A DNA stretch of 64,000 nt from a bacterium (lineage in GTDB: Bacteria; Patescibacteriota; Saccharimonadia; UBA4664), in assembly GCA_016699105.1 (NCBI GenBank), contig CP064960.1, positions 264,727 through 328,726 on the forward strand, given 5' to 3'. Made by a program: the position numbers and the translations under genes. Below, piece after piece: positions 12,101-64,000 of the stretch. How positions within the stretch are numbered: the stretch's first letter is position 1; every line of letters starts with the position of its first letter. Under the pieces are notes generated by a model that worked only from the letters and a program-made list of their open reading frames with translations, ran no database searches and was not told the origin of the DNA.

Positions 12101-13496
12101 CTGCCCGTTCCCGGTACATGTCGGTGGTATTGATGTCATAGGCGTTGGTATTCCATTGGGTAGCCGAGGGAGTGTTAGATGCAACACAACTAAAGCAGTT
12201 GCCGGTGTTGAGTTTGGTCGTAATGTAATGGCCATCGCAGTTGCCATATGCGGGATTGCTACAGGTGGGCATTTCAACATGGAAATTGGCTTCTATGAGG
12301 TATTTGGTCGGTGAAACAAATTGCGAGTAATCTACATGGTAGGCAAAGCGCCAATATTTGTTACTAATTGAACCAGTCGAATTACCGCAGCCTTGTCCGG
12401 CATAGCAGATAAATCCGTCAGACTTGTAATTTACGTAATTGTTGCTGGGGCCGCTTTGGACAACAAAGGTTGGATCTACAACCAATGGGAAGTCGGCAGT
12501 TGCACGGTCATTTAACCACTTTGGGTCGACGGTGATTGTCAGCCGTTGGCCTTTGAGTTTTTGACTAACGTATGGCTCAGCACCGATGATACCTTCGGTT
12601 TGAGTAGCAATGGTAGGTGCAGGAATAACGAAATCTTTGAGATTACCGTCGAGTTTGAACCAACCTGCTGGACGGTCAGCAACAGGCGTGAGAGAGGTGC
12701 CTGTTATATCAAAATTGAACGTGTTTGAAGCGAGTCGGCTTTTGATGATGATGTGTTCGCGTAGCTCTGACCCAAGTACGGCATACATGAGATCAATACC
12801 CGGCCAGGCATTGCGATATGTAACAGTTTGAACGCCATCTGATTCTGAGACTACCGGGTCAACGGCTGCTGCTCCAGCGGGTTTTAGGCTAACAGTTTGG
12901 TCGCCTTGAACGAGTTCAAGATTGGTGGCGCTGACTTTGCCGAACCGGACCTGCCACGAGTTCGCTCGACTTTTCCAACGGCCATCAGAACTATCTTGAA
13001 CTAGGGTGGTGTCTACTTTTTGCCAAGACCCTGCAGTGTCACGAAAGTTTGATGCCTGAAACGTTTCAACCGCAGTCTTGGTTCCATCCGCATTCTGATA
13101 AACAGTACGGTGGCCGGTGCGATCTTCGGGGAGCGTGGCTACCCGTGTTAGGTCACGTGGTCGACCTTTCGTGGCTATATCTCGATCTTCATCGAGTTGT
13201 TGCTGCAACGACTTTGAAATGGGCTGGGCTTTGGCGGCTGGTTCGATGGCATCGCTGGCGGTAATTTGGTCGGTAGTGTCTAGAGCGGCTAATGATTGTG
13301 GAGTGCGGGATTGTTGTCGTTGATAATATGACAAGAGCGCCGGGAGGCTCGTACCACTAATGCGAGAATTAGTATTGTGGCAATAAAACGGCGGACAGGG
13401 ACATGGGTGAATTTGAACGACCAATGCCGACGCAGCATAGTACACCTCAACAACACTTATTACTTGCAGCATAAGCTTATTCTCAGAGTGGTGCAA
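6156..13496 (-). CDS. giant RHS/YD-repeat polymorphic toxin with bulb-type lectin and three PA14 domains; C-terminal ~200-aa variable toxin domain
   Basis: Uninterrupted 2446-aa ORF. PA14-like segments at 'GLVGEYYNDPS...IRWTGYF', 'GLIGRYYNGATL...VRWTGYF' and 'WVHLMQTGTYKWRAYTDDGFLLYIDD'. Bulb lectin: 'SQDGRFSLALQSDGNLVVYG...QSDCNLVLYN'. Many YD repeats ('YTYDxxGR'). RHS core end '[34 protein letters not shown]' followed by a Cys-containing unique tail. The N-terminal start is uncertain, because an alternative-frame ATG near 13438 gives a signal-peptide-like start. Confidence 0.85.
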   Translation of the reverse strand: MHHSENKLMLQVISVVEVYYAASALVVQIHPCPCPPFYCHNTNSRISGTSLPALLSYYQRQQSRTPQSLAALDTTDQITASDAIEPAAKAQPISKSLQQQLDEDRDIATKGRPRDLTRVATLPEDRTGHRTVYQNADGTKTAVETFQASNFRDTAGSWQKVDTTLVQDSSDGRWKSRANSWQVRFGKVSATNLELVQGDQTVSLKPAGAAAVDPVVSESDGVQTVTYRNAWPGIDLMYAVLGSELREHIIIKSRLASNTFNFDITGTSLTPVADRPAGWFKLDGNLKDFVIPAPTIATQTEGIIGAEPYVSQKLKGQRLTITVDPKWLNDRATADFPLVVDPTFVVQSGPSNNYVNYKSDGFICYAGQGCGNSTGSISNKYWRFAYHVDYSQFVSPTKYLIEANFHVEMPTCSNPAYGNCDGHYITTKLNTGNCFSCVASNTPSATQWNTNAYDINTTDMYRERAASGDPNAWFMVWGEENQNNYYSYKQFAYDKTQVWFNYTNLPTASSGLAPLEGQTVVTTQPSFTASTSTDADGDPVNYRFVIGTVKTGTNSVGGIIADSGYTTNKWTIPDNILRDGTTYYWQVQTWDNRTGVIPTYGPTQSFRVDLRSGQDSTQSYDSAGGLSVDLASGNATTSAKSHGIAALGGTLGIGLDYNSPWRSRAGLVGEYYNDPSATRTFPSAGTAAAITKIDNGIDYNWGSSSPYPGIVTTDNFLIRWTGYFVAPQTKTYNFGLAHDNGARLYLDDQSYLDSWNTSQSGLWGGNVALTAGQIVKVKLEYAETTGSASVQFLARSTDGKVPAGPIPADWLQTGIRSVATPHGLIGRYYNGATLPTSYTDTNGTFLVRSDTSPSQDWGNGSPLPGGPTDNFVVRWTGYFKAPQAGNYKFGAQSDDGAKVIVGGTTQVDTWSSGATTTPTWATNTVSFANAGDTTQITVEYKEVTGAANVGLYVDGPGIDKGLPVPSDWLLPKAQVVPDGWTLGIDDNVNYDFAVINTNSVTLRDTSGNSHEYKYSGSVFTPPSGEAGQLSRAGDGTITLQDTDGRTYIFGSDGTLRSTSMPVDDLRPAALTYSYSGSPARLDQVTDGISTDRWAKLYYQGNANCPAVPGGFVSTPSGMLCAVATSDGRQTKLFYANDSGGIPRLARIELPGTDLTDYGYDNLGRINSIRDSLANDAITASVRNQDGTERTDYTFDVLGRVVSATLPAATAGASRLARTYEYRVGESRIHVTGAAEPNGFSRKITYDGIYRTLSDTSAADLTTTTEWDQLKDLVVATTDPTGMRSTIAYDYADRPTDQYGPAPAAWFPKGVLSTNSFMYPGGYLMSQDGRFSLALQSDGNLVVYGPSGPVWSSQTGGHAVTHLLMQSDCNLVLYNGATDYWASNTVGGSYCRTVIENTGQANIYNEAGLPVWKRPTAPVSTTANPSNAYRAPFATYTNQTPRSQTTYDEGINTLAAAFYNEDPTTKTLVGTPRKHQTGLNPADKGVYAIWGTNWPGYGIGQPITPDSGKGWGARVTGWVHLMQTGTYKWRAYTDDGFLLYIDDQLIVGDWRDTGYRQLTEGNYVNTADSWHRIRIEKYTAPSTLSDARLDLCVTRPDAYYDCAIQNWGWSPGYGLSTTNKVYDSQVGNTTATNNYGTNPELGLLTSATADPTGLNYSSSSTYETPGATGSYLRQTGKTLPGGTATTYSYYAATDTADNPCTAGTTESYKQAGMSKLKTEQDPDGGGTLSGRKTEVIYDDAGRIVASRMIGATNQTDPWSCTTYDSRGRVSQTITPTISGRTGRTISYDYAVSGNPLNGSSTDSVTGTSSVTIDLLGRTTNTTDVFGYTTSTTYDTLGRVSQTTSLKGTEVPTYNTLSQVTSYALDGTTYATMTYDSYSRLATVNYPQATNGTNTLRLTQVTRDNLQRTTGSVFTFADNTTISETVGLSVQKGLVTSDSLTQGGKTAGASYLYDGLGRLTQATVDNWQYQYGFGTQQAACTSTPGYNANAHKNGNRTSTAVTNTLTSSTTTSNYCYSAADRLASSTDTQVGTPTYDDRGNITQLAGAGTPIQFTYDASDQNTKIQQGTNWTEYVKSAGGSVLIKREYRNSVLDKVYRNAGGVMLTCSTSNQSSCTTLDKYIGLPGGVSLTLKNGTPVYSVKNFHGDTAIQVGANGLPSTAVMLYDPFGQVLASNTFGTSKTSLTNASDNGMGWAADPARKSESMFSIPVVEMGARVYLPSVGRFTSVDPVEGGSVNSYSYVNDPVSSNDYSGRCVPGVYCSANTDYLLQGAPQKTTVNAAPAPISATINQGVWRQATVRAAPNTQQQNRQTARDIQSGSIVRSLPPSNPSPGESGWGYINVGVSYGFLIPVPGTAIPIPWGAGAGVMVNNQGARPYWGTGPSTPGKGLNITYSPSEPTEGCTTSWTAGAGFGVSSGNDLDPRKAEYGLMLPGGASVFTQCVGSPFVLY

Positions 13497-40088: not shown

Positions 40089-40178
40089 GGAGAGGTACCC
40101 AAGAGGCTGAAGGGCGGGTTTGCTAAACCTGTAGGGGGCGTAAGCTCTCGCGAGAGTTCGAATCTCTCCTCTCCGCCA
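40089..40178 (+). tRNA. tRNA-Ser (anticodon GCT)
   Basis: Manual fold: acceptor GGAGAGG/CCTCTCC, anticodon stem CGGGT/ACCTG with loop TTGCTAA, long variable arm, T-loop TTCGAAT, 3' CCA encoded. Confidence 0.85.
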
Positions 40179-47767: not shown

Positions 47768-47855
47768 TGGCGGAGGGTGGGATTCGAACCCACGGAACCC
47801 TTGCGGGCTCTCCTGTTTTCAAGACAGGTGCACTCGGCCACTATGCGACCCCTCC
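47768..47855 (-). tRNA. tRNA-Ser (anticodon TGA)
   Basis: The reverse complement folds as acceptor GGAGGGG, anticodon stem CCTGT/ACAGG with loop CTTGAAA, long variable arm, T-loop TTCGAAT, CCA. Confidence 0.85.
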
Positions 47856-48573: not shown

Positions 48574-48650
48574 GCGCCTGTAGCTCAGTGGATTAGAGCA
48601 TCAGCTTGCGGTGCTGGGGGTCGCAGGTTCGAATCCTGCCAGGCGCACCA
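48574..48650 (+). tRNA. tRNA-Arg (anticodon read as GCG)
   Basis: Cloverleaf: acceptor GCGCCTG/CAGGCGC, D-arm GCTC..GAGC, anticodon stem TCAGC/GCTGG with loop TTGCGGT, T-arm GCAGG-TTCGAAT-CCTGC, discriminator A, CCA. Position 34 is G where bacterial tRNA-Arg usually has A, so the fold should be verified. Confidence 0.65.
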
Positions 48651-48808: not shown

Positions 48809-48899
<91 letters not shown>

Positions 48900-53783: not shown

Positions 53784-55305
53784 TTGGTAACGGCGGCTTT
53801 ACTATCTGTCATCGTAGCGGTGGTGCCGGCCGAACACAAATTTCATTTGTTTGGGCCGACGTTATCAATCTCTATCTGTGCTGCGCTGATAGTGGCAGTA
53901 TTGGCCGTGCGATTGAATCGTTATCCTCACGTCTGGCGACCGTGGCAGACGGTGGCGGTATTTGGCGGACTACTGGTGATCCAGTTATTGGCATGGTCGC
54001 TGACTTCGACTGGTTCTGCTGGGATAGCCAGATTGTACTTGATCAAGCGGTGCGCTACGCCCAGACTGGCGCCATCGATCCAGCCCTGCGGACTATTTTC
54101 GAACGTATCCCAATAACGTCGCTCTCTTGAGTATTTTGGCAACGCTCTTCCGAGGACTGAGTACGATAGGCATTACCGATTTTGCCACAGCCGCAACATT
54201 CATGAATGCGCTTGTGCTGTGGTTAAGTCTGGTGATGCTGTATCTGGTGGCGCGACGGTTGTATGGGGCAGCGGTAGCGCGCCTGACCTGGCCTTTGGGA
54301 TTGTTGCTCTTGGTGCTGAGTCCGCAAATTTCGACCGTGTATACCGACACGTTGGCGATGATTTTTCCAATTAGTTTGTGGTATGTAGCGCTCAAAATAG
54401 CGGCAGCAGAACAAGGTCGACGACGGTTTGCGGCTGATGCTGGCGGCAGTGCTATCGGTTATTGGTATTTTGATCAAACCGACGGTGATTATGGCGACAC
54501 TAGCGGCACTGATTGCTTTTGGGGTCTGGGTTATGTTGAGCCCAGCACCGTCTGCGCAATGGCGTCATCGTCGGCGCATCACGATCGGCGGCACTATCGT
54601 CCTGGGATTGGTGAGTCTTTGCACCTATGCGTTGTATATCAAAAGCGTCGATACGCTGGCGATATTGCCTTATCCGGCAGCTCAAAATGAATCAAGAAGC
54701 GATGCCAGCCGAGCACTATATGGCAATTGGTATGAAGGCCAGTCTGCAAGATGGTATTCCCGCCTACGGAGTGATATTCGGCCCAAGCGCTCGCGAACAT
54801 GACTGCCCTACCTGATCGACAGTCGCGCGTGGAGTATGCCCGTAACGACATTTGGCAGCAGCTGAGTGAGTATGGCGTTTTTGGCTACGCTGATTTTTTG
54901 TTGAAAAAGATGGTGTGGATTTTGTCTGATGGCACTTTTTATGCCTATGGTGAGGGCAATACTCAACTCGAGTTTTATCACCATGATCCGCTGAGTCAGT
55001 GGATCCGGCAGTTTCTTTACGTCGGGGGCTGGGGCTATGGCGGCTATTCAAACATGGCGCAAGCCGTGTGGTTGGCAGTATTGCTGTTGGTGGCATTACC
55101 AGTGGCGCGATTACGCAATGCCCGGCGCAACAGTTTTGGGTTTACGACGTTGGTGCCGCGCCTCATGCTGACCGGTTTGGTGATCTTTATTTTGCTATTT
55201 GAGGGTCGGGCGCGCTATTTATTTTTGTATGTGCCGGTGATTATTGGTTTGGGTTTGTATACGCTGAAAATTTTTGAAGCCGACGAGGCGTCCAGGGTTA
55301 AATAA
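53784..55305 (+). pseudogene. PMT_2/ArnT-like (GT-C) membrane glycosyltransferase, broken into 4 ORFs
   Basis: ORFs 53784..54116, 54127..54690, 54428..54802 and 54799..55305 are all highly hydrophobic and read consecutively. The C-terminal soluble part is 'GTFYAYGEGNTQLEFYHHDP'. Confidence 0.45.
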
Positions 55306-55602
55306 TTGCACACGGAGCGAGAACCGTTCGCGAATATCATACATATCGCCGGCGTTAAGTCGGGCTAAGACGGGGTTTTAAATTGTTTATGACTATGGCA
55401 TTCTTGATCATTCATACCGCCAATGGGATTATGATTACAGGAAAGGGATACCACCATTGCCGAATATACTGAGCACGTTCCGAAAGATCAGCTGGGTTCA
55501 TCGACGGGAGAGACACTAGCTGAAGATCTGACCGAGCAATTAAAGACGCGGCCAGGACTGGAGTTATCTTTAGAGTCAACTTCTCATGGAATTGATGAAG
55601 TT

Positions 55603-57003
55603 TTGGGACAAAAACAAAGAGCAGACGAGGCACGAGCACAATTGGGTTTGGAAGCGCCCTCTGAAATAAAGCCGACAATATATATTATCGAACGCGATTT
55701 AGCTAAGAACGCAGAATCTTACGACGCTAGCGGGCGACTTCGACCGGAATTCTCGATTGCAGGTAGACGAGTTGTCTTTAAAAATCGCATGGAGAAGGTA
55801 GCCCTCGATAATAGAGCGGTCACGATTGTTGGTGCAGAATCTACTGCGCCGGTTCAATTAAAGAAAATGTATGCTGGTACCGAAGCAGTTTTAGATAATA
55901 ACAGTGTCGTTTCCGAAGAAGCACAACTACAGATCCATGGCCAGTTGGTAGAGGATGATTTGCGCGAAGAACAAGTTATACATGATCTTGACGAGTACAA
56001 TAGAGCGCATAGTGAAAAAGCCGATGAGCCCGAGAACGTTCTGGTAGTTACGAATACTCCACTCGGTTTAATCGAAGCGGCAATTATTCTCGGTAATTCG
56101 GATTTGCAGCCAATTGCTGACCTTATGAAGTCGGGAAAGTACAGTGATCCTGATTGTATTGAGATTATCGACAACATGATTGCTGCAATGGCAATATCTG
56201 ATGAGGGTACAGCTTCTGAGAAATATGATACTGACGGCCTTGCACTTGCACTCGCTGCAATGACAGGCAATGCTGATGCCCGGGCGGTAATCGCACTAAA
56301 ACGTGGTGGACTTGAATCAGTTGAAAAAAGTCGCTTACAGGCAATCCAGGAGCAGAGTCTCAAAGCAAAAGCGGGCTATGAGATTCAGGGTATTGAACCC
56401 TTGCCACTTGATCATATGTTCCTAGTACACTCCACGGCATTCATGCCCGAAATTCAAGATGACGGCTCATTAGCTATCTACCCTACCGGCCGGTATGTCG
56501 GAGACGTGCCGAGGGCCTCAGTACATTTTACAATTAATAGTAATGTCTTTCCGCATGCACAAGCTAACGGTGCGTGGGGAGCTGAAAACTCCATCATAAT
56601 TGCTCCAGTAAATGAAACAATACAACAAAATGGCAAACCTCGAGCGCTTGAGGGTGTAGATACATGGTTTACCGTTAATCCTGGTGAACCATTACGTATA
56701 CCAGAGTCGACATTAGTTGTTCCCGTATCGGAATCAGAGCATTTGGTGGAGCAAACGGGCAATGTAGTCCGGGTACTTACGCGGGCAGAATATACTCCTC
56801 AAGAGCAAGCTCAGATAGTAGACATTATGCGTCAGGTTGGCATGGTTGAAGCCGGACCTGAGAATCAGGTGTCTCGGGGTATAACGGCTAAAGAATTGCG
56901 TGAAGCGGTAGTGCGCCAAGTGTTGCAAGCGCTTGGGGTTCAGCAATCGGAATGCGACTCGCCTTCACAAGATGGGCATGGTATGACCAACAGCATGGGC
57001 TAA
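55603..57003 (+). CDS. hypothetical protein (466 aa; TTG start as listed; the frame is open upstream to ~55435)
   Basis: Long acidic ORF with no recognisable motifs; start codon uncertain. Confidence 0.35.
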   Translation: MGQKQRADEARAQLGLEAPSEIKPTIYIIERDLAKNAESYDASGRLRPEFSIAGRRVVFKNRMEKVALDNRAVTIVGAESTAPVQLKKMYAGTEAVLDNNSVVSEEAQLQIHGQLVEDDLREEQVIHDLDEYNRAHSEKADEPENVLVVTNTPLGLIEAAIILGNSDLQPIADLMKSGKYSDPDCIEIIDNMIAAMAISDEGTASEKYDTDGLALALAAMTGNADARAVIALKRGGLESVEKSRLQAIQEQSLKAKAGYEIQGIEPLPLDHMFLVHSTAFMPEIQDDGSLAIYPTGRYVGDVPRASVHFTINSNVFPHAQANGAWGAENSIIIAPVNETIQQNGKPRALEGVDTWFTVNPGEPLRIPESTLVVPVSESEHLVEQTGNVVRVLTRAEYTPQEQAQIVDIMRQVGMVEAGPENQVSRGITAKELREAVVRQVLQALGVQQSECDSPSQDGHGMTNSMG

Positions 57004-57311
57004 TCGTATCCATGTTACCTGTCGGCGAACCCTCGGTGGTTGGTGAACTCAGGTACGGCATTTTAATTTTCCTGGTGAAGCCGATTAGAGAAGTTTCCAG
57101 TTACGCGTTGTTGAAGCATATGATTAGCCCCAATCCCAGAGAGGCAGCATTTAGTGATGGACGTATGAGCGCCCAAGATTCAGCAGCGGTCAAGCTTGCC
57201 CACAGATGATTCTGGACAAGATTCGTAAGCGGTAGCTTGAAGCGACGCCACCAAATCGCGCTAAACCGCTAGATACGAGCAAGTTATGCCTCCCGTATAA
57301 AATACGAGTGT

Positions 57312-60045
57312 TCATGTTCTAAAATATTTGTCCCCTAGTTTTGGAGTGCTTTGAGTTGTTTCGCCTAGGGACGCTCTGCTTTGCTGACGGGTATTGATGA
57401 GGCGGTCGCGGGTTTCGGCGACGACAGCTTCAGGAGCGTTTTGAACATATGCTTTGTTGTCGAGTTTGGCGGTCAAACCTTTGGTATACGATTGTTTTTC
57501 GTCGAGTTGGAGCTTGAAGCCGGTGCTGACGGGCGGCAATGAGAGTATCGTCGGCTTCGATCCAGGCGGGAACGCTCGTGCCAAGGTAGAGGCCAGTCCC
57601 CTTTGCTCGCGAACTCGACTTTGCCAAGCTTACCCAAGCGGATGAGGAGTTCGGTGGAATCGGTGAGTTGTTTGGCGGTGGTGATGAGCGTAGGTTTGCA
57701 AGTTGTTCTTCGCCGCAATGGTACGGGTTTTTTGGACTAGATCTTTGATGGTTTCAAATCGTTCAGATAGTTTGGTTTGTGTTCTTGTAGTGTCCACAAC
57801 AGTTGGCCAGGCAGTTGTAATGAGTAAATCGTGGCTGTGCCAAGGCATTTCTGACCAAATACCGGTGACGAACGGCGCGATTGGGTGAGCCAATTTGAGG
57901 ATAGTCTCGGAGTGCAGCAACGAGCAAGTCATGGTTGGGGGACACTTTGAGGCTTCGATATACCAGTCGGCAAAATCATCCCAGAGCAGTGAGTACACGG
58001 TCTGGCCAGCTTCGGAGAAGCGATAGTCTTCGATAGCTTGAGCAACCGAGAGCGTGGCGGCATCCGTCTTAGTTGCAACCAGTGATCAGCAGGGGAGTTG
58101 AGCTGGGGCGTAGCGGGGAGCAATCATCGGGCAACTGACCCAAGATGAAGCGGGCAACATTCCAGAGCTTGTTTACAGAAATTGCGATAGCCCCTGATTT
58201 TGCGCGCTCGGACAACGGTCCGTCATTGCCGGCGGTAATACCGATAGTAGCGGGCAAGGCGAACAGCGTCGGTACCATATTTGGCGGTTACCGCGAGGTT
58301 GAGGACATTTGCTCTTGGACATTTCTTGCCGTGGCACGGCATTCATGCCGTGGAGATAGACGGTCCGGAAGGACTTCGTCTGGTGTTCATGACTTGGTTT
58401 TAAACATGCCAAACATGATCATGCGAGTGACCCATAGGTATAAAATGTCGCGCCGGTCCTTATGACGCTGGTGGGGTAGAAGCTGGGCTGCCCATTCGTG
58501 GGGTCAAAGTCGCCGGTGGCCAGCGGGAGGGTGGCGTAGGGCCATCACGGAGCTAAAACCAGGTATCGAAATTACCGGTTTCAGCCTTCGTAGCCGTTTG
58601 GTCCATACAGGGCTTTGGCGTCAGCTTCGGTGCCGATGATGTACTCGGGCAATGATTGATCGATGGAGCGGTTGTATGACCGGCACGCGGATGCCCCACC
58701 AGTTTTGGCGGAGATATTCCACCGCGTAAGTTTTCGAGCCAGTCGAGGGCCGACTTGGTAAACCGCTCGGGAACAAATGTGATCTCGCCGATTTGATGGC
58801 GGCAATGGCCGGTTTTTGAGCTCATCGGACACGCAACCACCATTGTTCGACGGTGAGCGGCCTCATGAGGGCGCGCAACGATCGTGGAAGCCTGGCGGAG
58901 TGTGTGTGTAATCGAATCTTCGACATGATCGACTCAGCCCGCGGAACTTCGAGGTCGCGGAAAGACCTGTGTGCGCGTCGGGCCACTGGCATGTTGGCGT
59001 AGCGACCAGCGAAAGTTCGGTGAGGAGGCAGCCGTCGGTGCCGATAACCTGTTTAACTACCAAGTTGTGGCGGAGGCCACTTGGCCGTTGGGGCCGTGGG
59101 CGGGGTTATTCATGGCGCCGGTGCCAAAGGCCGGGTCGATGTGGTGGTCGCCAATGACGTTGAGCTTGATGGGTCCATTGAGGTCTTCGGCTTCGATGGT
59201 GGTACCAATGAGGTGCTGGCAGCGCCTGTCTTCGGGTGGACGGCAATGGCGGTGTCGCCGAACTTGGTTTCAGGCCGGACGGTGGGCTGTGCACGAAGGG
59301 GACCGTACTTGACGTAGTAGAGCGGGTCGGTTTGTTCGCGATATTTGACCTCAATATCGGCGAAGGCAGAGAGCGGCAGAAGGGACACCAGTTGACGATG
59401 CGGGTTACCGCGGTAGATATAGCCGGCGTCATGTAACTCTTTGAAGGTTTCGTAGACGGTTTTTACAATCTTGTCGTCAAGGGTGTAGGTAAGGTGCGAC
59501 CTAACTCACCCAGAAGCCCAGCGATTTAACCTGAGCGATCATGTTGCTCATGTTGTCTTTGGTAAATTGGTCGACTTGACGGTAGAATTCATCGCGGCCG
59601 AGATCGAAGCGATTTCCGGCTCTGCTTTTCGAGGAGGCGCTCGTAGACGACTTGGGTTTCGATGCCGGTACGGTCAGCGCCAGGAGCCAGAGGTGGGGTG
59701 ACCTTACGTGGCGGTAACGGATCATCAGATCCTCGATGACGAAACATAGCGTGGCCCATGTGGAGGTTACCATTGGCGTTGGGCGGTGGCATGATGATGG
59801 TAAATGGTCTTTGCGGGTAGTAGAATCTCTCGAAACGCCTCCCCTCACGCTGGCGAACGTCGTCTTCTCTTCGAGGAGCTTAACTATCAGAACCCACACC
59901 CGCTTGTTCGGTCGGCATTTCCTTCGACGCTACTCGCAAATGCGCATTGCCGTCTGTGGTGAAGGCGCTGGCGTCCTCCCACTTGGTGTAGAGTTTGGAT
60001 TCGTATTTTTGCGGATCGTAGGCTTTATCGAGCTGGTGGCTCATG
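57312..60045 (-). pseudogene. valS: valyl-tRNA synthetase, interrupted by at least 8 frameshifts (essential gene, so assembly errors are more likely than true decay)
   Basis: Pieces in order: 'MSHQLDKAYDPQKYESKLYTKWE' (start 60045); 'PPPNANGNLHMGHA' (HIGH region, 59589..59792); 'TTRPETKFGDTAIAVHP' (59110..59388); 'FDTWF' and 'LDWLENL' (58553..58843); 'NKLWNVARF' (58069..58278); 'DDFADWYIE...KLAHPIAPFVTGIWSEMP' (57630..57998); C-terminal coiled coil (57312..57584). Good SD 'gaggaaa' before the ATG. Confidence 0.8.
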
Positions 60046-60204
60046 AGTATTTCCTCTCAAACGTTAGCGTTATGTGGTGAGAGATTCACTTGTAAAGGCG
60101 GCTGGGCCGGATGGCGAGACCGCCGGGGGAGCGATATCTGAGGATATTTTAGCGCGCGGGAGGCGATTGCGCCAGGTTAAGCGGAATGAACGTCGAAAAT
60201 ATAG

Positions 60205-60290
60205 TCAATTCCGGGATTTCCGGAAAGACAAATAATTACCGGGAATCCCGGTCAGATTGACTTTTACCGATTCCCGGTAAATTCTATGTA
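60205..60290. promoter_or_regulatory. promoter region with three spaced palindromic operator-like sites (core CCGGGAWTCCCGG)
   Basis: 'ttCCGGGAtttCCGGaa' (~60210-60226), 'aCCGGGAATCCCGGt' (60238-60252) and 'taCCGATTCCCGGta' (~60265-60279) have centres ~27-28 bp apart. They overlap a TTGACT...TAAATT/TATGTAT promoter-like sequence upstream of the 60312 gene. Confidence 0.4.
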
Positions 60291-60311
60291 TGAAGATACA
60301 TATCCCAAATA

Positions 60312-61060
60312 GTGCCTTCCTTGGCAACCTCGATGCGTTTTTTGATGGGATTTGACCCAACTGATCCTGGCTATTTACAGATCACAACGAATGACCGTTG
60401 GATAGCGGTACACCCAGTTGTGTTATCGATGATTGGAGCGCTTGGTCTTACTGTCGCCCCTGAACGGATCCAATTTGACGATATTGGTCACAAATCAGGA
60501 CATTATTTGGAGGCTATGGGGCTCTTCAGCCTGCTTAACGTGCCTTCCCCGATGCAGATTGAACGCCATGAACCTGTGGGCCGATTCATCCCGTTAGCTG
60601 AAATTAACAATTCTGATGACTTACAACGCTTCATGACCGACATGGTTCCCTTTGCTTCATCTACCTTCGCATCAGGCCGACTCGATTCGCTATATTGTGA
60701 GGAACTTGTGCGAAATGTATTTGAACATTCTCTGTCCACCCATGGCGCGGTTGTTTCGGCTCAATATTTTAAGAAACCAACAGTTCAATTGAGTGGCGGA
60801 CACCGGGTCGGAATCTGAAAACCATGAATTCCCATCCCGCCCATACTGACCTAGATGCAATTAAATTAGCGCTTACGCCGGGTATTACGGGGTACAACCT
60901 CTCGAGAGGGCGGCACTGAGACAAATGCTGGTGCTGGATTGTTTTCGGTCAGGTCTACAGCCAAGATTAATCGAGATTTTTTTGTTTCGCCATTCTGGTC
61001 GCGGTTTTTAAGGTTGCTTCAACCTGCTAAGGAGCTCAAGGAATGACGCTTTATGCGGAT
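60312..61060 (+). CDS. GHKL-type (HATPase_c-like) ATP-binding protein, frameshifted
   Basis: The 168-aa ORF contains the N-box-like 'EELVRNVFEHS'. After its stop another frame gives 'TNAGAGLFSVRSTAKINRDFF' (a G2-box-like GxGL). Confidence 0.35.
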
Positions 61061-61245
61061 CCGAGCCGTGAGGCATACTGAAAGAGAAGATATGCCTCTG
61101 GTTAGGACGGCTGGTAGGAATAGACTTGTCACTAGACGCAACAAGCGAACTGGACGTATTTGCTCGACCTTATTGGTGATGTGTATGCTACGGCACAGCT
61201 GAGAGACGCAGAGCTCGATTTAAGCAACCGAGGTTTTTATAGCCT

Positions 61246-61561
61246 ATGCAAGAACAGCCACGTATTGTCATCAATATTCTTCAAGAAGTTGGCGCGTTTG
61301 CTGAAAATATGATGTCGCCGCACAGCTAAGGAGCAGCAAATAATGCCCGCATTAAAGCTGCATAAAATAGTGCGTTTGAATTTTCAAGGTGTTACGTCGG
61401 CGACCCAATCTGTGCATGCACTAATAAGTGAAGCGATGAGGGTGTATACGGCAAAACGTATTGACCAGATCGAGTTTAAGGAATGTAACGATAAGGTTCG
61501 TAAAATCATCATTATCGTCACCGATTATAGCGCAAAGCGATGCGGCGTAAGACTGGTATAA
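61246..61561 (+). CDS. DUF4325 (STAS-like) domain protein, one frameshift
   Basis: 'MQEQPRIVINILQEVGAFAENMMSP' (61246..61329) then 'KIVRLNFQGVTSATQSVHALISEAMRVY...KIIIIVTDY' (61343..61561). Fits the DUF4325 pattern 'v.ldF.gV..itsSF.del.g'. Confidence 0.4.
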
Positions 61562-61605
61562 GCATGAACTTAGCGCGATTTGGGCCGTACCTAATCTCTC
61601 CTGAA

Positions 61606-62470
61606 TTACCTCAAACCCATTCACGCTGCGCGACGATAGCGAACCCGATAATCGCTGTCTCAATGCTCGGGTTCGCGAACAAAAGTTTCTTGGCAATTTC
61701 GTTGAAGGTGGCGCCGGAGCCGACTGCGTCATCAATCAGCAATAGCTTTTGTAATGTGCGTATTAGGGGAGATTTGAGATAGATGGTCTCTGGGCGTTGG
61801 TGATCTTTTCCGAAGCCCTGAAAGCGACTTCTGGGGAACGATCACGTCGCCGCGATATGATTTCACGAGGTTGGCTTTGGGTAGATTGAGCCTGGAGTTT
61901 GTCGGCAAACTCATGCATGAATTGGAGCTTGCGGGGAACGCTCGGTGGGACAACAAGATTGCATCGATGCCATAGGTGGCAATAATTTGATGGATGATTG
62001 GTTTTACCTGGCCGACGGCGGAATTTATTAACTGCCGGTTTTGCGATTGTTTGGCGTAGAGGACAAGGTTACCCAGCTTGGCTTTGCCAAATTTGGGAAT
62101 GCTGTAGAAGTCTCCATAGAGGAGCCACAGGACATTGTCCGTGAAGGTTGTAGTTACTTGGTGGCGTCAATCCAGCCCTCCGGTGACCGGTTCTTTCCCA
62201 GGCACTGTGCAAGCCTCGATACTTCGTCCGAGAGGGCTACAAACTGGGCATCTTGCTTGGTGGCGTGCCCAAGCTTGGAACCCAGTCATGCCATAGAGCA
62301 GTTGACCCTGTGGTGAGACGTAGAGATAGTGTTTATCAATATAGTTGATGTGCCGGCGGACAGATCTGCTGTGTGGGTAGCGGGCGTGGCTGCGCTGTGC
62401 GAGCATGTAAACACGAGCGGGGGTTTGCCAACCTGTTGAAGTTTGCCCTGCGCAACCAACTTATTTAGCT
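61606..62470 (-). pseudogene. degraded ComF/phosphoribosyltransferase-family paralog
   Basis: Minus-strand translation around 61620-61760 gives 'LLLIDDAVGSGATFNEIAKKLLFANPSIETAIIGFAIVAQREWV*' (PRTase C-terminus). Upstream segments change frame repeatedly. Confidence 0.4.
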
Positions 62471-62792
62471 GCCGGTGGACCGCGGTTTGGCTAATACCAA
62501 AATTTTGCCTATATCATGCGCCCGCGCTTGATGGTTTGCGGCTATGTATTCGATTATTCGGATCTGGCAGGTATCAAGCCATCTATAGTGCATAGTATAT
62601 AGTGCACTATGCAATTATGTCATTATTGAAGATCTTGAGATGGATCGGATCAGAGACCGTCCCCGGTAATATGAGGATATAAAAGTAGCTGACGATTCCC
62701 TATCTGGGTTTGTTTGCGAGATAAGCATTACTGTGTTTATCCCGGGCTGCGGTGGCGCAGCTCGGGATAGGTTGGTTCGATGGTGGCGCTTG

Positions 62793-63185
62793 TTAGAGGA
62801 CCGTTTGATAATTAGGCCCGAAGAGACGTGTGGCGGCTGATGGATCACGGTCTAGAGTCCGTTTTACGCTTGAGAGGCTCACATGGACACCATGTTCGAG
62901 CAGCTCTGCGTGGACAACCTCAGCGCATCTGTTGTGCTTGAGACGCTCGGCGATGATGGCTTGGACGATTGCCTTGGAGAGCGCTTTCGGATGAGACTGA
63001 GGCCGCGAGGACTCGGTTGGAATATTCATCCGGCCGTCGGCCGGAGCTTTAGCGACCCAGCGCACAATGGTGGACTGGTTGTACCCGAAATGAAGGGCGA
63101 CTGCACGAGTAGTCCACCCTTTTCTTACAAGTTTGACCGCTTCCATGCGGAGTTTAGGGAGCTTTTCGTTAGATGTGTAGGCCAT
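62793..63185 (-). mobile_element. IS481-like transposase N-terminal (HTH) fragment; DDE core absent or decayed
   Basis: 'LVRKGWTTRAVALHFGYNQSTIVRWV' HTH, followed by 'SRPQSHPKALSKAIVQAIIAERLKHNRCAEVVHAELLEHGVHVSLSSVKRTL', which matches the IS481 'RPhrSP...g.kia..L...g...s.stV.riL' region. The ORF stops after 130 aa. Confidence 0.4.
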
Positions 63186-63313
63186 GGTTCATTGTAGCGT
63201 TACTTTGATGCAAAGCTATTGAACCATTACGGATGATTGGAAACAAACATAATTTATGGTATAACCTGTTTACTCGTAATCCGAGAGTACCTCGAGTGAA
63301 CTGGAGCTTCGCT

Positions 63314-64000
63314 GTGTCTGATAAATCTGAAGTGCAACGGCCAAAGTTGACACCGACTGAAAGGCTCGTAGTTGATTTAGTGAGTCAAGGCTTGACCAAT
63401 AAGGAAGTGGCAGCAAGGTTGGGTAGATCGCCATTGACAATAAAATCGCACCTGAATCGGATATCGGGTAAATGTGGTGGACGACATGGACGAGCTGACA
63501 TTATTTTGGCATTTGGAACATCAGTTTCAAGTTTGCAAGTTCATTTGTTTAAGCAGTCGTGGGACAGTTTGAACAGATATGCTTACATAATTGCGTCGTT
63601 GGCTGCACAGGGTATGACGAATCAGCAGATAAGTAGTCGAATAGGTATTTCTGTGGATTCGGTCAAGTATCGTTTGCGAAAGATATTTCAGCAATTGGGT
63701 GTCAGTAGACGATTTGAGCTTGTTGAACAGTGGCGAGTTATGAATACTATTGCACACCAATCCGAATATGATGAGAGCCCATTCGGCCGATTGCGAAATT
63801 GGTTTTTAAATCAGCAGCAACCGCTGGATCAGTCTGAACTGTTGACGCTCATACAAATAGCCTTGAATGGTGATTCCGAGGATTCTGAGTTGTTGGCTAT
63901 TCGGTCGGAGCGAGTTCGAACTTTGATCGAAGATATCTTGCGCAATCAATTGTCGTTTGCACCAGTATTACTGATGCGACTCTGGCTTGAAAGTGGTTGG
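63314..64000 (+). CDS. regulator with two tandem LuxR/GerE-type HTH domains (GTG start; runs off the window end)
   Basis: 'LTPTERLVVDLVSQGLTNKEVAARLGRSPLTIKSHLNRI' and 'LNRYAYIIASLAAQGMTNQQISSRIGISVDSVKYRLRKIFQQLGV'. Not in the ATG-ORF track because of the GTG start and the open end. Confidence 0.5.
   Translation, partial: MSDKSEVQRPKLTPTERLVVDLVSQGLTNKEVAARLGRSPLTIKSHLNRISGKCGGRHGRADIILAFGTSVSSLQVHLFKQSWDSLNRYAYIIASLAAQGMTNQQISSRIGISVDSVKYRLRKIFQQLGVSRRFELVEQWRVMNTIAHQSEYDESPFGRLRNWFLNQQQPLDQSELLTLIQIALNGDSEDSELLAIRSERVRTLIEDILRNQLSFAPVLLMRLWLESGW

What the first reader, a model, noticed from the sequence alone, without database searches (positions are those of the whole stretch)
60205..61561. 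GHKL ATPase plus DUF4325 (STAS-like) two-gene module under a triple-palindrome operator
Three near-palindromic sites with core CCGGGA(A/T)TCCCGG, spaced ~27-28 bp apart (about 2.5 helical turns), overlap a promoter-like TTGACT...TAAATT. Downstream is a gene with a GHKL N-box-like 'EELVRNVFEHS' and, in a shifted frame, 'GAGLFSV'. Next comes a small gene matching the DUF4325 STAS-like pattern ('KIVRLNFQGVTSATQSVHALISE'). HATPase_c plus DUF4325 pairs are poorly characterised partner-switching-like modules, sometimes found in mobile or defence contexts. Here the module is tightly regulated by what looks like a dedicated repressor site array, and it sits next to a degraded ComF paralog and an IS481 fragment. 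Both genes carry frameshifts.
Basis: partly seen in the sequence, partly recalled or inferred. Interest (0 to 1): 0.55.

Follow-up and report, generated by a model that had tools for sequence, protein, structure and literature searches.

The report
Self-regulated kinase–STAS two-gene cassette
This is a copy, garbled by assembly errors, of a widespread uncharacterised two-gene cassette (a VapK-like GHKL kinase plus a VapS-like STAS protein); the cassette carries its own palindromic operator and leaderless promoter and occurs almost unchanged in both Bacteria and Archaea, yet has no recognisable DNA-binding domain or effector gene.

Summary
Palindromes of the form TACCGGGAWTCCCGGTA bracket a TTGACT/TAAATT promoter. 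A GHKL-ATPase gene (K, 60290-61242) and a DUF4325 gene (S, 61246-61550) follow.

The frameshifts are very probably not biological. A sharply bounded patch (56,998-62,789) has 143 small indels relative to syntenic relatives whose genes are intact, and it also shatters an essential ValRS. After indel repair, K and S have no stops and pass Pfam cut-offs (HATPase_c 28.8 bits, DUF4325 33.5 bits).

The cassette is a large family: at least 2,546 clusters at 90% identity and 455 hits in species-representative genomes. Only K, S and the operator are conserved.
- Bacterial loci place the palindromes around the -35 and -10.
- Archaeal loci keep the palindrome but use a TATA box.
- Both layouts are leaderless.
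- A phage-borne subfamily has the same architecture with a different 17-mer.

K is homologous to VapK and CapK, and S is in the same Pfam family as VapS (Chambers et al., EMBO J 2026). The cassette lacks VapC and lacks the wHTH of CapS.

Best reading: an autorepressed switch, probably sensing nucleic acid, in which K phosphorylates S. Which protein binds the operator, and what the output is, remain open. I rate it a new variant of a known kind.

The parts
60209..60225 (.). Operator site 1 (distal, imperfect palindrome TTCCGGGATTTCCGGAA)
   Evidence: It is identical in the close relatives L081-L083. A third, distal site is also seen in L007, L014, L027 and L036.
60237..60253 (.). Operator site 2 (TACCGGGAATCCCGGTC, perfect 13-mer core), directly upstream of the -35
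   Evidence: It occupies the conserved position, with its centre about -47 from the ATG, seen in bacterial loci.
60257..60262 (+). -35 hexamer TTGACT
   Evidence: TTGAC lies between the two palindromes in 55 of 64 bacterial loci.
60265..60279 (.). Operator site 3, filling the -35/-10 spacer. In the window it reads TACC--GATTCCCGGTA, a full palindrome with a 2-nt deletion.
   Evidence: L081-L083 read TACCGGGATTCCCGGTA. Its centre, about -19 from the ATG, is the most conserved operator position.
60278..60283 (+). -10 hexamer TAAATT (TATCTT in L081; TATAAT in most relatives), overlapping the last GGTA of site 3 and ending 6 nt before the ATG. This implies a leaderless mRNA.
   Evidence: The -10 ends 5-8 nt before the ATG in 41 of 50 scored bacterial loci. 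There is no SD-like tetramer in 74 of 80 loci.
60290..61242 (+). K gene: STAS-like N-domain + GHKL kinase/ATPase + C-terminal helix with a basic tail (321 aa when repaired). It is interrupted by 21 frame-changing indels in this assembly.
   Evidence: Fold matches are SpoIIAB plus RsbV-like for the N-domain. hhalign to VapK gives 96.9% and to CapK 93.2%.
61246..61550 (+). S gene: DUF4325 STAS-like protein (103 aa when repaired). It starts 3 nt after the K stop and has 7 indel events in this assembly.
   Evidence: DUF4325, 33.5 bits. Model pLDDT is 91.5 and the fold is STAS. The invariant T54-Q55-S56 aligns with VapS S48.
56998..62789 (.). Low-accuracy patch of the assembly: 143 small indels and raised mismatch relative to syntenic relatives. 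It covers ValRS, K, S and the 333-aa gene.
   Evidence: The flanks 55258-56997 and 63232-64000 align to L081 with zero indels.

Best explanation
The locus is one copy of an autonomous, horizontally spread two-gene cassette of the VapK/VapS type.

Gene 1 (K) encodes a STAS-like domain fused to a GHKL Ser/Thr kinase, plus a family-specific C-terminal helix and basic tail. Gene 2 (S) is translationally coupled to it and encodes a roughly 100-aa DUF4325 STAS-like substrate.

The cassette brings its own promoter, with 17-bp palindromes (TACCGGGAWTCCCGGTA) placed upstream of and inside the core promoter. The transcript is leaderless, which lets the same cassette be expressed in Bacteria (-35/-10) and Archaea (TATA box).

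Proposed mechanism, with the status of each step:
1. In the resting state a cassette-encoded species occupies the palindromes and represses the operon. The species could be unphosphorylated S, K, or a K-S complex. That an operator exists is shown; the binder is inferred.
2. A nucleic-acid signal, probably ssDNA as for CapK and VapK, activates K. This is inferred from conserved aligned residues.
3. K phosphorylates S on T54 or S56 at the start of helix 2. This is inferred from homology and position.
4. Phosphorylation changes S partnering, relieving autorepression and triggering an unknown output.

The frameshifts in this window are assembly errors, so the organism most likely has an intact cassette.
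For: Cassette identity and autonomy:
- Only K (80/80) and S (80/80 by clustering; 69 in a clean frame) are conserved among 80 loci. The next real family occurs in at most 6 loci.
- No 10-mer is shared by more than 3 loci outside the cassette.
- S starts 0-3 nt after the K stop.
- Downstream neighbours are 36 same-strand and 38 opposite.

Operator:
- 146 copies in 79 of 80 promoters, 58 of them perfect 17-mers, centred at about -19 and -47, spaced 27-28 bp, about 218-fold enriched.
- Archaeal loci keep the palindrome plus a TATA box whose first T is 29-32 nt from the ATG in 16 of 16, and 10 of 16 have a half-site before the ATG.
- A gene-blind scan for the operator in metagenomes found a K gene 19-78 nt downstream in 39 of 80 loci.
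- The phage subfamily (K 42-43% identical) has an identical layout with a different 17-mer, ATACCCGTAGATCGTAT and its inverted copy. So the operator co-varies with the cassette.

Homology:
- K vs VapK: probability 96.9%, E = 2e-10. K vs CapK: 93.2%, E = 3e-7. N142 aligns with catalytic N218, and K161/K162 align with the ssDNA-binding K237/K239.
- S and VapS both hit DUF4325.
- VapS S48 falls within the invariant TQS motif, present in 65 of 69 partners.
- N-box and G2 motifs are intact in 78-80 of 80 loci.
- phrog_5816 fuses K-like and S-like regions in one protein.

Mechanistic precedent: CapK phosphorylates CapS, causing derepression; VapK phosphorylates VapS, releasing VapC; both are activated by ssDNA (PMC13373217).

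Assembly error:
- 143 indels lie only in 56,998-62,789, with intact syntenic relatives.
- Repaired K and S have 0 stops and are 96% and 99% identical to L081.
Against: - Neither K nor S has a recognisable DNA-binding domain. S lacks the wHTH that CapS uses. S has pI 6.1 and the K N-domain pI 4.9.
- No effector is encoded. There is no VapC and no downstream cargo, so the output is unknown.
- The match to HATPase_c_2 is below the Pfam cut-off for most members.
- The similarity of S to VapS by direct profile search is weak, E = 0.17.
- The ssDNA-sensing inference rests on aligned residues only.
- 41 of 80 operator hits in metagenomes lack K. Most are coding coincidences or terminator-like hairpins, but a few are unexplained.
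- Assembly error cannot be proven without reads.
Confidence: 0.55

Rival explanations
1. Kinase-toxin/STAS-antitoxin (TA-like or abortive-infection) module. K itself is the effector, phosphorylating host or phage targets. S is a stoichiometric inhibitor or pseudosubstrate. The K-S complex autorepresses through the palindromes, as in type II TA conditional cooperativity. This overlaps with the best explanation and differs mainly in the output.
For: - It is an autonomous two-gene operon with tight palindromic autoregulation, broad horizontal spread and no third gene.
- Its relatives VapK/VapS belong to a TA-like anti-phage system.
- A subfamily sits as a moron between tail genes of a siphovirus-like phage.
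- At least one MAG carries two copies, L010 and L020.
- A K-like domain is fused to the N-terminus of one DrmA (DISARM) model.
Against: - Toxicity of K has not been tested.
- In VapKSC the toxin is VapC, not the kinase.
- Neighbours are mostly housekeeping rather than defence islands.
- The gene order, large protein first, is not the common antitoxin-first layout.
Confidence: 0.25
2. The palindromes are bound by a host factor or serve a non-operator role. Candidates are a hairpin or cruciform, a terminator or insulator, a recombination site, or an ssDNA hairpin ligand that activates K. On this reading no cassette protein acts as a dsDNA-binding repressor.
For: - K and S have no DNA-binding domain.
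- The 17-mer can form a 7-bp GC-rich hairpin with a 3-nt loop, and the terminator scan flags it.
- The same 17-mer acts as a terminator-like hairpin in unrelated contexts.
- CapK and VapK are activated by ssDNA.
Against: - The palindromes sit at fixed positions relative to the -35/-10 in Bacteria and to the TATA box and start site in Archaea, which is classic operator geometry.
- They lie upstream of the start site, so they are not in the mRNA.
- No host factor is shared by Elusimicrobia, CPR, Planctomycetes and DPANN archaea.
- The operator changes when the cassette diverges.
- The phage-type sites are not individually palindromic, so a per-site hairpin is not conserved.
Confidence: 0.12
3. 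The window copy is a genuine pseudogenised module, in a decaying island next to an IS481 element, rather than an assembly artefact.
For: - The indels are in the deposited sequence, and NCBI annotated a 165-aa fragment (P0001).
- The patch ends about 60 bp before a real structural difference, the IS481-like HTH segment at 62,848-63,231 that is absent from L081.
- Mismatches are spread over codon positions: K 3/12/15 and ValRS 41/36/53. That pattern fits neutral decay as well as error.
Against: - There are 143 indels in 5.8 kb against 246 substitutions, both insertions (60) and deletions (83), mostly 1-2 nt, and 83 of 143 are next to the same base.
- The boundaries are sharp and fall inside genes, with zero indels in the flanks.
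- An essential ValRS carries 65 indel events.
- Removing the indels alone restores full-length K and S with no nonsense codons.
- Five independent contigs carry intact copies in the same synteny.
Confidence: 0.1
4. A classical anti-sigma / anti-anti-sigma partner-switching pair (SpoIIAB/SpoIIAA or RsbW/RsbV type) controlling a sigma factor.
For: - The best fold matches are SpoIIAB for K and RsbS, SpoIIAA and RsbV for S.
- JGI names many members 'anti-sigma regulatory factor (Ser/Thr protein kinase)'.
Against: - No sigma factor or PP2C phosphatase gene is linked in 80 loci.
- The cassette occurs in Archaea, which have no sigma factors.
- K has an extra N-terminal STAS-like domain and a C-terminal extension absent from SpoIIAB and RsbW.
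Confidence: 0.03

Closest known systems
VapK-VapS-VapC (vapKSC) DNA-damage-activated toxin-antitoxin/anti-phage system (Chambers et al., EMBO J 2026, PMC13373217)
   Same: - K has the STAS + GHKL architecture and is homologous to VapK (hhalign 96.9%, E = 2e-10).
- S and VapS both belong to Pfam DUF4325.
- The gene order is K then S, immediately adjacent.
- A conserved Ser/Thr sits at the start of STAS helix 2: VapS S48 aligns within the TQS motif.
   Different: - There is no VapC/PIN gene or any other third gene.
- S (96-105 aa) is shorter than the 116-aa VapS, whose residues 94-116 inhibit VapC. Whether S has an equivalent tail was not resolved.
- K has an extra C-terminal helix and a basic tail.
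- The cassette has a highly conserved palindromic operator and a leaderless promoter, and it occurs in Archaea. None of this is described for vapKSC.
CapK-CapS transcriptional regulators of immune operons (same paper)
   Same: - The kinase is homologous (hhalign 93.2%, E = 3e-7). Aligned residues include the catalytic Asn, the two ssDNA-binding lysines and the STAS-GHKL linker motif.
- Both are autoregulated through short palindromes with half-sites 1 bp apart that overlap the promoter.
   Different: - K has no N-terminal HTH.
- S has no wHTH and shows no detectable similarity to CapS.
- There is no downstream immune operon.
- The operator sequence is unrelated: TTAA half-sites in CapS against TACCGGGA here.
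SpoIIAB/SpoIIAA and RsbW/RsbV partner-switching modules
   Same: A GHKL Ser kinase paired with a STAS-fold substrate; these are the best structural matches.
   Different: There is no sigma factor or phosphatase partner, K has extra domains, the cassette is present in Archaea, and it is self-contained and mobile.
Type II toxin-antitoxin operons (e.g. hipBA)
   Same: A two-gene, translationally coupled, horizontally mobile operon with several palindromic operators over its own promoter. HipA is likewise a kinase.
   Different: The protein folds are unrelated, there is no HTH/RHH/AbrB antitoxin domain, and toxicity has not been shown.

Membership tests
VapKSC | Kinase with a STAS domain followed by a GHKL domain, homologous to VapK | tested here: met
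   - hhalign of the K profile against VapK: probability 96.9%, E = 2e-10.
- Fold search: SpoIIAB for the GHKL part, plus RsbV chains matching a separate region of about 80 residues, taken to be the N-terminal domain.
VapKSC | Small STAS (DUF4325) protein encoded immediately downstream, with a conserved Ser/Thr on helix 2 | tested here: met
   - Repaired S scores DUF4325 33.5 bits and VapS scores 64.2 bits.
- The TQS motif is present in 65 of 69 partners and aligns around VapS S48.
- S starts 0-3 nt after the K stop.
VapKSC | VapC-like PIN nuclease as the third gene (the toxin) | tested here: not met
   No third conserved gene in 80 loci. PIN is not among the recurrent neighbour families. In the window the next gene is convergent.
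VapKSC | VapS C-terminal inhibitory helix (residues 94-116) | tested here: inconclusive
   S is 96-105 aa. The alignment to VapS ends at about native residue 85, so no counterpart of the tail could be assessed.
VapKSC / CapKS | Kinase activated by ssDNA; phosphorylation of the STAS Ser switches partner binding | not testable with these tools
   There is only indirect support: K161/K162 align with CapK K237/K239 and N142 with N218, and W37 is invariant.
CapKS | CapK N-terminal HTH domain | tested here: not met
   K starts directly with the STAS-like domain. No HTH hit in Pfam.
CapKS | CapS is a STAS domain plus a wHTH DNA-binding repressor | tested here: not met
   S is a single domain of about 100 aa. 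hhalign against CapS gives probability 0.3%. CapS hits HTH_24 and not DUF4325; S does the reverse.
CapKS | Located upstream of, and controlling, an immune operon | tested here: not met
   Downstream gene orientation is 36 same-strand and 38 opposite. Neighbours are heterogeneous and mostly housekeeping.
SpoIIAB/RsbW partner switching | Linked sigma factor (and usually a PP2C phosphatase) | tested here: not met
   None is found among conserved or recurrent neighbours. The cassette is present in Archaea.
Pfam HATPase_c / HATPase_c_2 | Score above the gathering threshold; N-box, G1 and G2 motifs present | tested here: met
   - Repaired window K scores HATPase_c 28.8 bits (cut-off 26.4). HATPase_c_2 scores 23.1 bits (cut-off 27.4), so it is below threshold.
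- N-box is present in 78 of 80 loci, G1 in 71 of 80 and G2 in 80 of 80.
Type II TA system | A toxic component neutralised by the co-encoded partner | not testable with these tools
   Only the architecture (two coupled genes plus an operator array) is shown.
DISARM DrmA | SNF2-like helicase core with DrmB/DrmC partners | tested here: not met
   Only positions 28-250 of one 1750-position DrmA model (PDLC02567) match K. There is no helicase and no drm neighbours.

The most novel reading that the evidence does not exclude
The cassette encodes sequence-specific operator recognition and autorepression using only a STAS-GHKL kinase and a STAS-like protein, with no canonical DNA-binding fold. Candidate determinants are the ultra-conserved N-terminal arm of K, the nucleic-acid groove between its STAS and GHKL domains, and its basic C-terminal tail. 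On this reading it is a domain-crossing selfish or defence element. Its portable operator and leaderless design let the same two genes be regulated under both bacterial sigma-70 and archaeal TBP/TFB transcription, and the kinase itself is the effector.
Probability: 0.3. Interest if true: 0.8.

Novelty: new variant of a known kind. Interest (0 to 1): 0.62.

Why it matters
K/S (GHKL kinase + STAS) pairs were shown only in 2026 to couple DNA-damage sensing to immune-operon derepression (CapKS) or to toxin release (VapKSC). This cassette is a much more widespread minimal form, with thousands of clusters across Bacteria, DPANN and other Archaea, and phages. It has neither the DNA-binding domain nor the effector of those systems.

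It still carries one of the most strictly conserved operator arrays I have seen kept across the two prokaryotic domains, with the core promoter rebuilt for each domain around an unchanged palindrome.

That makes three questions directly testable:
1. How does a STAS/GHKL pair recognise DNA?
2. What does a K/S switch do when it stands alone?
3. How do leaderless, self-regulated cassettes cross the bacterial-archaeal boundary?

On the practical side, the case shows that the 'pseudogenes' in this MAG region are an assembly artefact.

Tried and rejected
- Pfam on the raw ORF pieces gave no hits; frame repair was needed.
- blastn of the locus against PLSDB plasmids and E. coli genomes found nothing.
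- tblastn of a VapS fragment against plasmids found nothing. The VapK and CapK sequences were taken from the paper's supplements instead.
- The K and S profiles against PDB sequences gave only weak hits: SpoIIAB at E = 0.26 and VapS at E = 0.17.
- NCBIfam has no specific family for either protein.
- PADLOC gave only the N-terminus of one DrmA model, so this is not a listed defence system.
- Search for a third conserved gene or motif: none found.
- Search for a regulon. The window has no other operator copy. The 814 kb of related loci contain only noise plus one solo site in L053. The gene-blind metagenome scan gave 41 sites without K, which are mostly coding coincidences, terminator-like hairpins or relic promoters. 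No convincing regulon emerged.
- Defence-island enrichment: not seen.
- The neighbouring wHTH + PRTase-like gene as the cognate repressor: rejected, because it is not conserved with the cassette.
- The K C-terminal basic tail as the specificity determinant: rejected, because it is conserved in the phage subfamily that has a different operator.
- A second viral scan returned only the same three contigs.
- Distant K/S pairs in GenBank phages are too AT-rich or truncated to be informative.
- The sigma-70 scan did not call the window promoter, because the 2-nt deletion shortens the spacer to 15 nt.
Full report
**1. What is in the window**

Upstream of an ATG at 60290 lie three sites and a promoter:
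- Site 1: TTCCGGGATTTCCGGAA (60209-60225).
- Site 2: TACCGGGAATCCCGGTC (60237-60253).
- TTGACT (60257-60262).
- Site 3: TACCGATTCCCGGTA (60265-60279).
- TAAATT (60278-60283).

Downstream are fragments of a GHKL ATPase gene and a small gene, broken over several frames. The quoted peptides are present. On the window alone the motif count is not significant: 3 matches against 1.24 expected, and 11 of 100 shuffles reach 3. The raw ORF pieces give no Pfam hits.

**2. The frameshifts are almost certainly an assembly artefact**

The longest ORF is 100% identical to 'hypothetical protein IPG36_02110' from a 1.32-Mb MAG contig. A homologue search with the repaired partner found P0031 (103 aa, 88% identical, DUF4325). 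Its contigs L081-L085 are syntenic with the window and carry intact genes: ValRS (906 aa, minus strand), K (321 aa), S (103 aa), and a 333-aa gene (minus strand).

L081 aligns to window 55258-62847 at 94% identity with 143 indel events:
- 96 are 1 nt and 31 are 2 nt.
- 83 are deletions and 60 are insertions.
- 83 of 143 are next to the same base.
- All lie between 56,998 and 62,789.

The flanks 55258-56997 and 63232-64000 have no indels. ValRS alone carries 65 indel events, K carries 21 and S carries 7.

Removing only the indels gives full-length K and S with no internal stop, 96% and 99% identical to L081. The third 'half-site' is a full palindrome in L081-L083, and the window has lost GG there. 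Restoring it gives a 17-nt spacer.

I therefore treat 'frameshifted genes', 'degraded ComF paralog' and the broken ValRS as one localised low-accuracy patch, with probability about 0.9. Reads are needed for proof.

Repaired K scores HATPase_c 28.8 bits (cut-off 26.4) and HATPase_c_2 23.1 bits (below its 27.4 cut-off). Repaired S scores DUF4325 33.5 bits (cut-off 23).

**3. A large, autonomous two-gene family**

A profile of full-length homologues found at least 2,546 clusters at 90% identity, nearly all about 320 aa. It found 3,700, 1,136 and 120 representatives at 50% identity for E ≤ 1e-3, 1e-10 and 1e-30. It found 455 relatives in one-genome-per-species collections.

The 80 best loci come from Elusimicrobia, Omnitrophota, Saganbacteria, Patescibacteria, Planctomycetes, Deltaproteobacteria and Chlamydiae. 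Sixteen archaeal MAGs are among them: Woese-, Nano-, Aenigmat- and Micrarchaeota, Methanosarcinales and Thermoplasmata. Identity is 57-71%.

Clustering all ORFs of the 80 loci shows only two conserved genes. K is in 80 of 80. A 94-106-aa partner that starts 0-3 nt after the K stop is in 69 in a clean frame and 80 by clustering. The next real family is in at most 6 loci.

Other context findings:
- No 10-mer is shared by more than 3 loci upstream of the operators or downstream of the S stop.
- The downstream gene is same-strand in 36 loci and opposite in 38.
- The 133 immediate neighbours hit 158 Pfam families, mostly housekeeping: ABC transporters, HisRS ×3, RecA and GatB. A minority are mobile or defence-type: AAA_14/DUF4143 (PDC-S01) ×3, integrase ×2, AbiEii ×1.

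**4. The operator**

In 79 of 80 loci, the 160 nt before the ATG hold 1 copy (18 loci), 2 copies (55) or 3 copies (6) of CCGGGAWTCCCGG at up to 2 mismatches. That is 146 copies, 58 of them perfect 17-mers TACCGGGAWTCCCGGTA. The density is 11.4 per kb against 0.052 per kb elsewhere in 814 kb, about 218-fold. Centre-to-centre spacing is 27-28 bp in 62 of 67 pairs.

In Bacteria one palindrome abuts TTGAC (55 of 64 loci). The second fills the spacer, and its last GGTA runs into the -10 (GGTAnAnT in 50 of 64). The -10 ends 5-8 nt before the ATG in 41 of 50 loci.

In all 16 archaeal loci the palindrome lies upstream of a TATA box whose first T is 29-32 nt from the ATG, and 10 of 16 have a TTCCCGG-type half-site just before the ATG.

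74 of 80 loci have no SD-like tetramer. Both layouts therefore imply a leaderless mRNA; this is inferred, as the start site has not been mapped.

A K gene starts 19-78 nt downstream in 39 of the 80. The other 41 break down as follows:
- About 22 lie in coding sequence, such as Walker-A TGNPGTGKT codons and GNPGNPG repeats.
- Some are terminator-like hairpins followed by a T-run (L125, L143).
- A few look like relic cassette promoters (L156, L097, L139, L150).

I see no convincing regulon.

**5. The operator co-varies with the cassette**

Three IMG/VR contigs (GC 38%) carry a K/S pair with K only 42-43% identical. The pair lies between a 181-aa gene and the tail-assembly and tape-measure genes, downstream of head protease/capsid genes. 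This is a moron-like position.

Their promoter reads ATACCCGTAGATCGTAT-ATTGACA-AAA-ATACGACCTACGGGTAT-AAT-TTAGAT-ATG. The architecture and the 6-nt distance from the -10 to the ATG are the same, but the 17-mer is different and the second site is the inverted copy of the first.

Because only K and S travel with the operator, across two domains and into phages, the operator-recognising activity is most simply encoded by K and/or S. This is an inference.

Between the two subfamilies S is nearly unchanged. K diverges most in its STAS-like N-domain: residues 1-25 are 36% identical and residues 26-105 are 32.5%, against 49% for the GHKL part. Within the main family residues 1-25 are the best conserved, at 80%. 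The basic C-terminal tail (ERKKARYKKPRF) is conserved in both subfamilies and is absent from CapK. This hints that K, rather than S, sets specificity, but the evidence is weak.

**6. The proteins**

The S model (pLDDT 91.5) is a β-α-β-α-β-α fold. Its best PDB matches are STAS proteins: RsbS (probability 0.98), SLC26 STAS domains, SpoIIAA and RsbV, with TM-scores of 0.5-0.6.

The K model (pLDDT 83.5) has an N-domain (1-105), a GHKL domain (about 108-285) and a C-terminal helix (289-314). SpoIIAB is the best match (probability 1.0, target TM 0.61-0.68). Separate hits of about 80 columns to RsbV chains (rmsd 2.2-3.1 Å) probably cover the N-domain and would indicate that it is STAS-like; the search output does not give aligned query ranges.

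Catalytic N-box and G2 motifs are intact in 78-80 of 80 loci. S has FAENKD in 69 of 69 and T-Q-S before F[IV]HAL in 65 of 69. PHROGs adds phrog_3364 (K-like) and phrog_5816, a 441-position family that matches the K GHKL region at 153-278 and S at 336-437. That is a K-S fusion, which supports a physical partnership.

**7. Comparison with what is known**

A weak PDB sequence hit of S to 'Escherichia VapS' (9z7o) led to Chambers et al., EMBO J 2026 (PMC13373217). Their findings:
- CapK (HTH-STAS-GHKL) phosphorylates CapS (STAS-wHTH repressor, TTAA-n1/n10-TTAA palindromes) on S54 when activated by ssDNA.
- VapK (STAS-GHKL) phosphorylates VapS (STAS plus a C-terminal tail) to release the PIN toxin VapC.

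The paper mentions no stand-alone pair, no archaeal members, no leaderless layout and no DUF4325.

Using sequences from its supplements:
- K profile vs VapK: probability 96.9%, E = 2e-10.
- K profile vs CapK: probability 93.2%, E = 3e-7. N142 aligns with catalytic N218, K161/K162 with the ssDNA-binding K237/K239, and SKHYLxRMGLF with SAKNYLNRLGFF.
- S profile vs CapS: no match.
- VapS scores DUF4325 64 bits, while CapS hits only HTH_24.
- VapS S48 (chain residue 66 after an 18-residue tag) aligns inside T54-Q55-S56, at the N-terminus of helix 2.
- A 2017 PIN survey noted a VapC subgroup 'transcriptionally coupled to DUF4325'.

The cassette is therefore a vapK/vapS-type pair. It fails the VapKSC membership test on the defining third gene. 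It fails the CapKS test on both HTH domains and on the downstream operon.

**8. Mechanism and what remains open**

I propose an autorepressed switch. A cassette-encoded species occupies the palindromes. K, on sensing nucleic acid (probably ssDNA), phosphorylates S at T54 or S56. This changes S partnering and derepresses the operon.

What is shown: the architecture, the homology, the conserved catalytic and acceptor residues, and the operator geometry and its co-variation with the cassette.

What is inferred: who binds the DNA, what the signal is, that phosphorylation occurs, and what the output is.

Neither protein has a known DNA-binding fold, and no effector is encoded. A kinase-toxin/STAS-antitoxin reading is a serious and partly overlapping rival.

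**9. Verdict**

The cassette is a new variant of a recently defined kind and is of moderate to high interest at the family level. This particular copy is simply badly assembled.

Noticed in passing
window 56998-62789: A sharply bounded stretch with about one small indel per 41 bp and raised mismatch relative to syntenic contigs. It breaks valS (57.3-60.04 kb, minus strand; 65 indel events), K, S and a 333-aa gene. The rest of the window has long intact ORFs. It looks like an unpolished long-read patch in the MAG.
   Followed up: yes
window 62793-63185 (-), and 62848-63231 vs L081 7625-8020: A 130-aa ORF with a transposase-type HTH (HTH_23 32 bits; LZ_Tnp_IS481 18 bits, below cut-off). It replaces most of a 141-aa gene found in the relative L081, and only the last 17 residues are shared. 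This is a real structural difference, sitting just past the end of the error patch.
   Followed up: partly
It has weak hits to an N-terminal wHTH (MarR_2, 23 bits) and a C-terminal PRTase-CE (17 bits), both below their cut-offs. It is not conserved with the cassette.
   Followed up: partly
L087 7363-12515 (also L086, L088): A divergent K/S pair sits as a moron between a 181-aa gene and the tail-chaperone/tape-measure genes of an uncultivated phage (GC 38%). It has its own promoter and a different 17-mer operator.
   Followed up: yes
PHROGs phrog_5816; PADLOC PDLC02567 (DrmA): One phage protein family (441 positions) matches the K GHKL region and S in a single polypeptide, which is a K-S fusion. 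Separately, one 1750-position DrmA (DISARM) model has a K-like STAS+GHKL region at its N-terminus (positions 28-250).
   Followed up: partly
L053 ~6956; L156 ~470; L097, L139, L150: Solo copies of the operator, some with the full palindrome-TTGACA-palindrome or half-site layout but no K gene after them. They may be relics of lost cassettes or captured promoters. In L150 the next gene is a 213-aa protein that I suspect is AbiEi-like; that is my impression only and was not tested.
   Followed up: partly
K genes, about +603 from the ATG in many loci (e.g. L004, L008, L040): The codons of the invariant K motif L-T-P-G-I-T-G read CCGGGAATCACGG, a 2-mismatch look-alike of the operator core inside the gene it controls. 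This is probably coincidence.
   Followed up: no
L125 5856 and L143 641: The same 17-mer palindrome, followed by a T-run on one strand, lies next to homologous genes of about 120 aa on two unrelated metagenome contigs. It behaves there like an intrinsic terminator hairpin.
   Followed up: partly
L211 2414-2452 (Clostridioides phage ES-S-0173-01, CP067352.1): A distant K-like (308 aa) plus DUF4325-like (90 aa) pair has a 19-nt inverted repeat over its -10. Here there is an SD and a leader. The genome is very AT-rich, so the repeat may be chance.
   Followed up: partly
window 6156-13496 (-): A 2,446-aa ORF, the largest in the window. I did not examine it.
   Followed up: no
window 40089-40175, 47771-47855 (-), 48574-48647, 48809-48895: Four tRNA genes were found by Rfam. 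No other RNA family reached its gathering score in the window.
   Followed up: no
L010 and L020: Two separate copies of the cassette lie on different contigs of one Elusimicrobiota MAG (SMAG_U13921), which fits a mobile or duplicating element. Aminoacyl-tRNA synthetase genes recur next to the cassette: ValRS in the window lineage and HisRS in three loci. I have no explanation for that.
   Followed up: no
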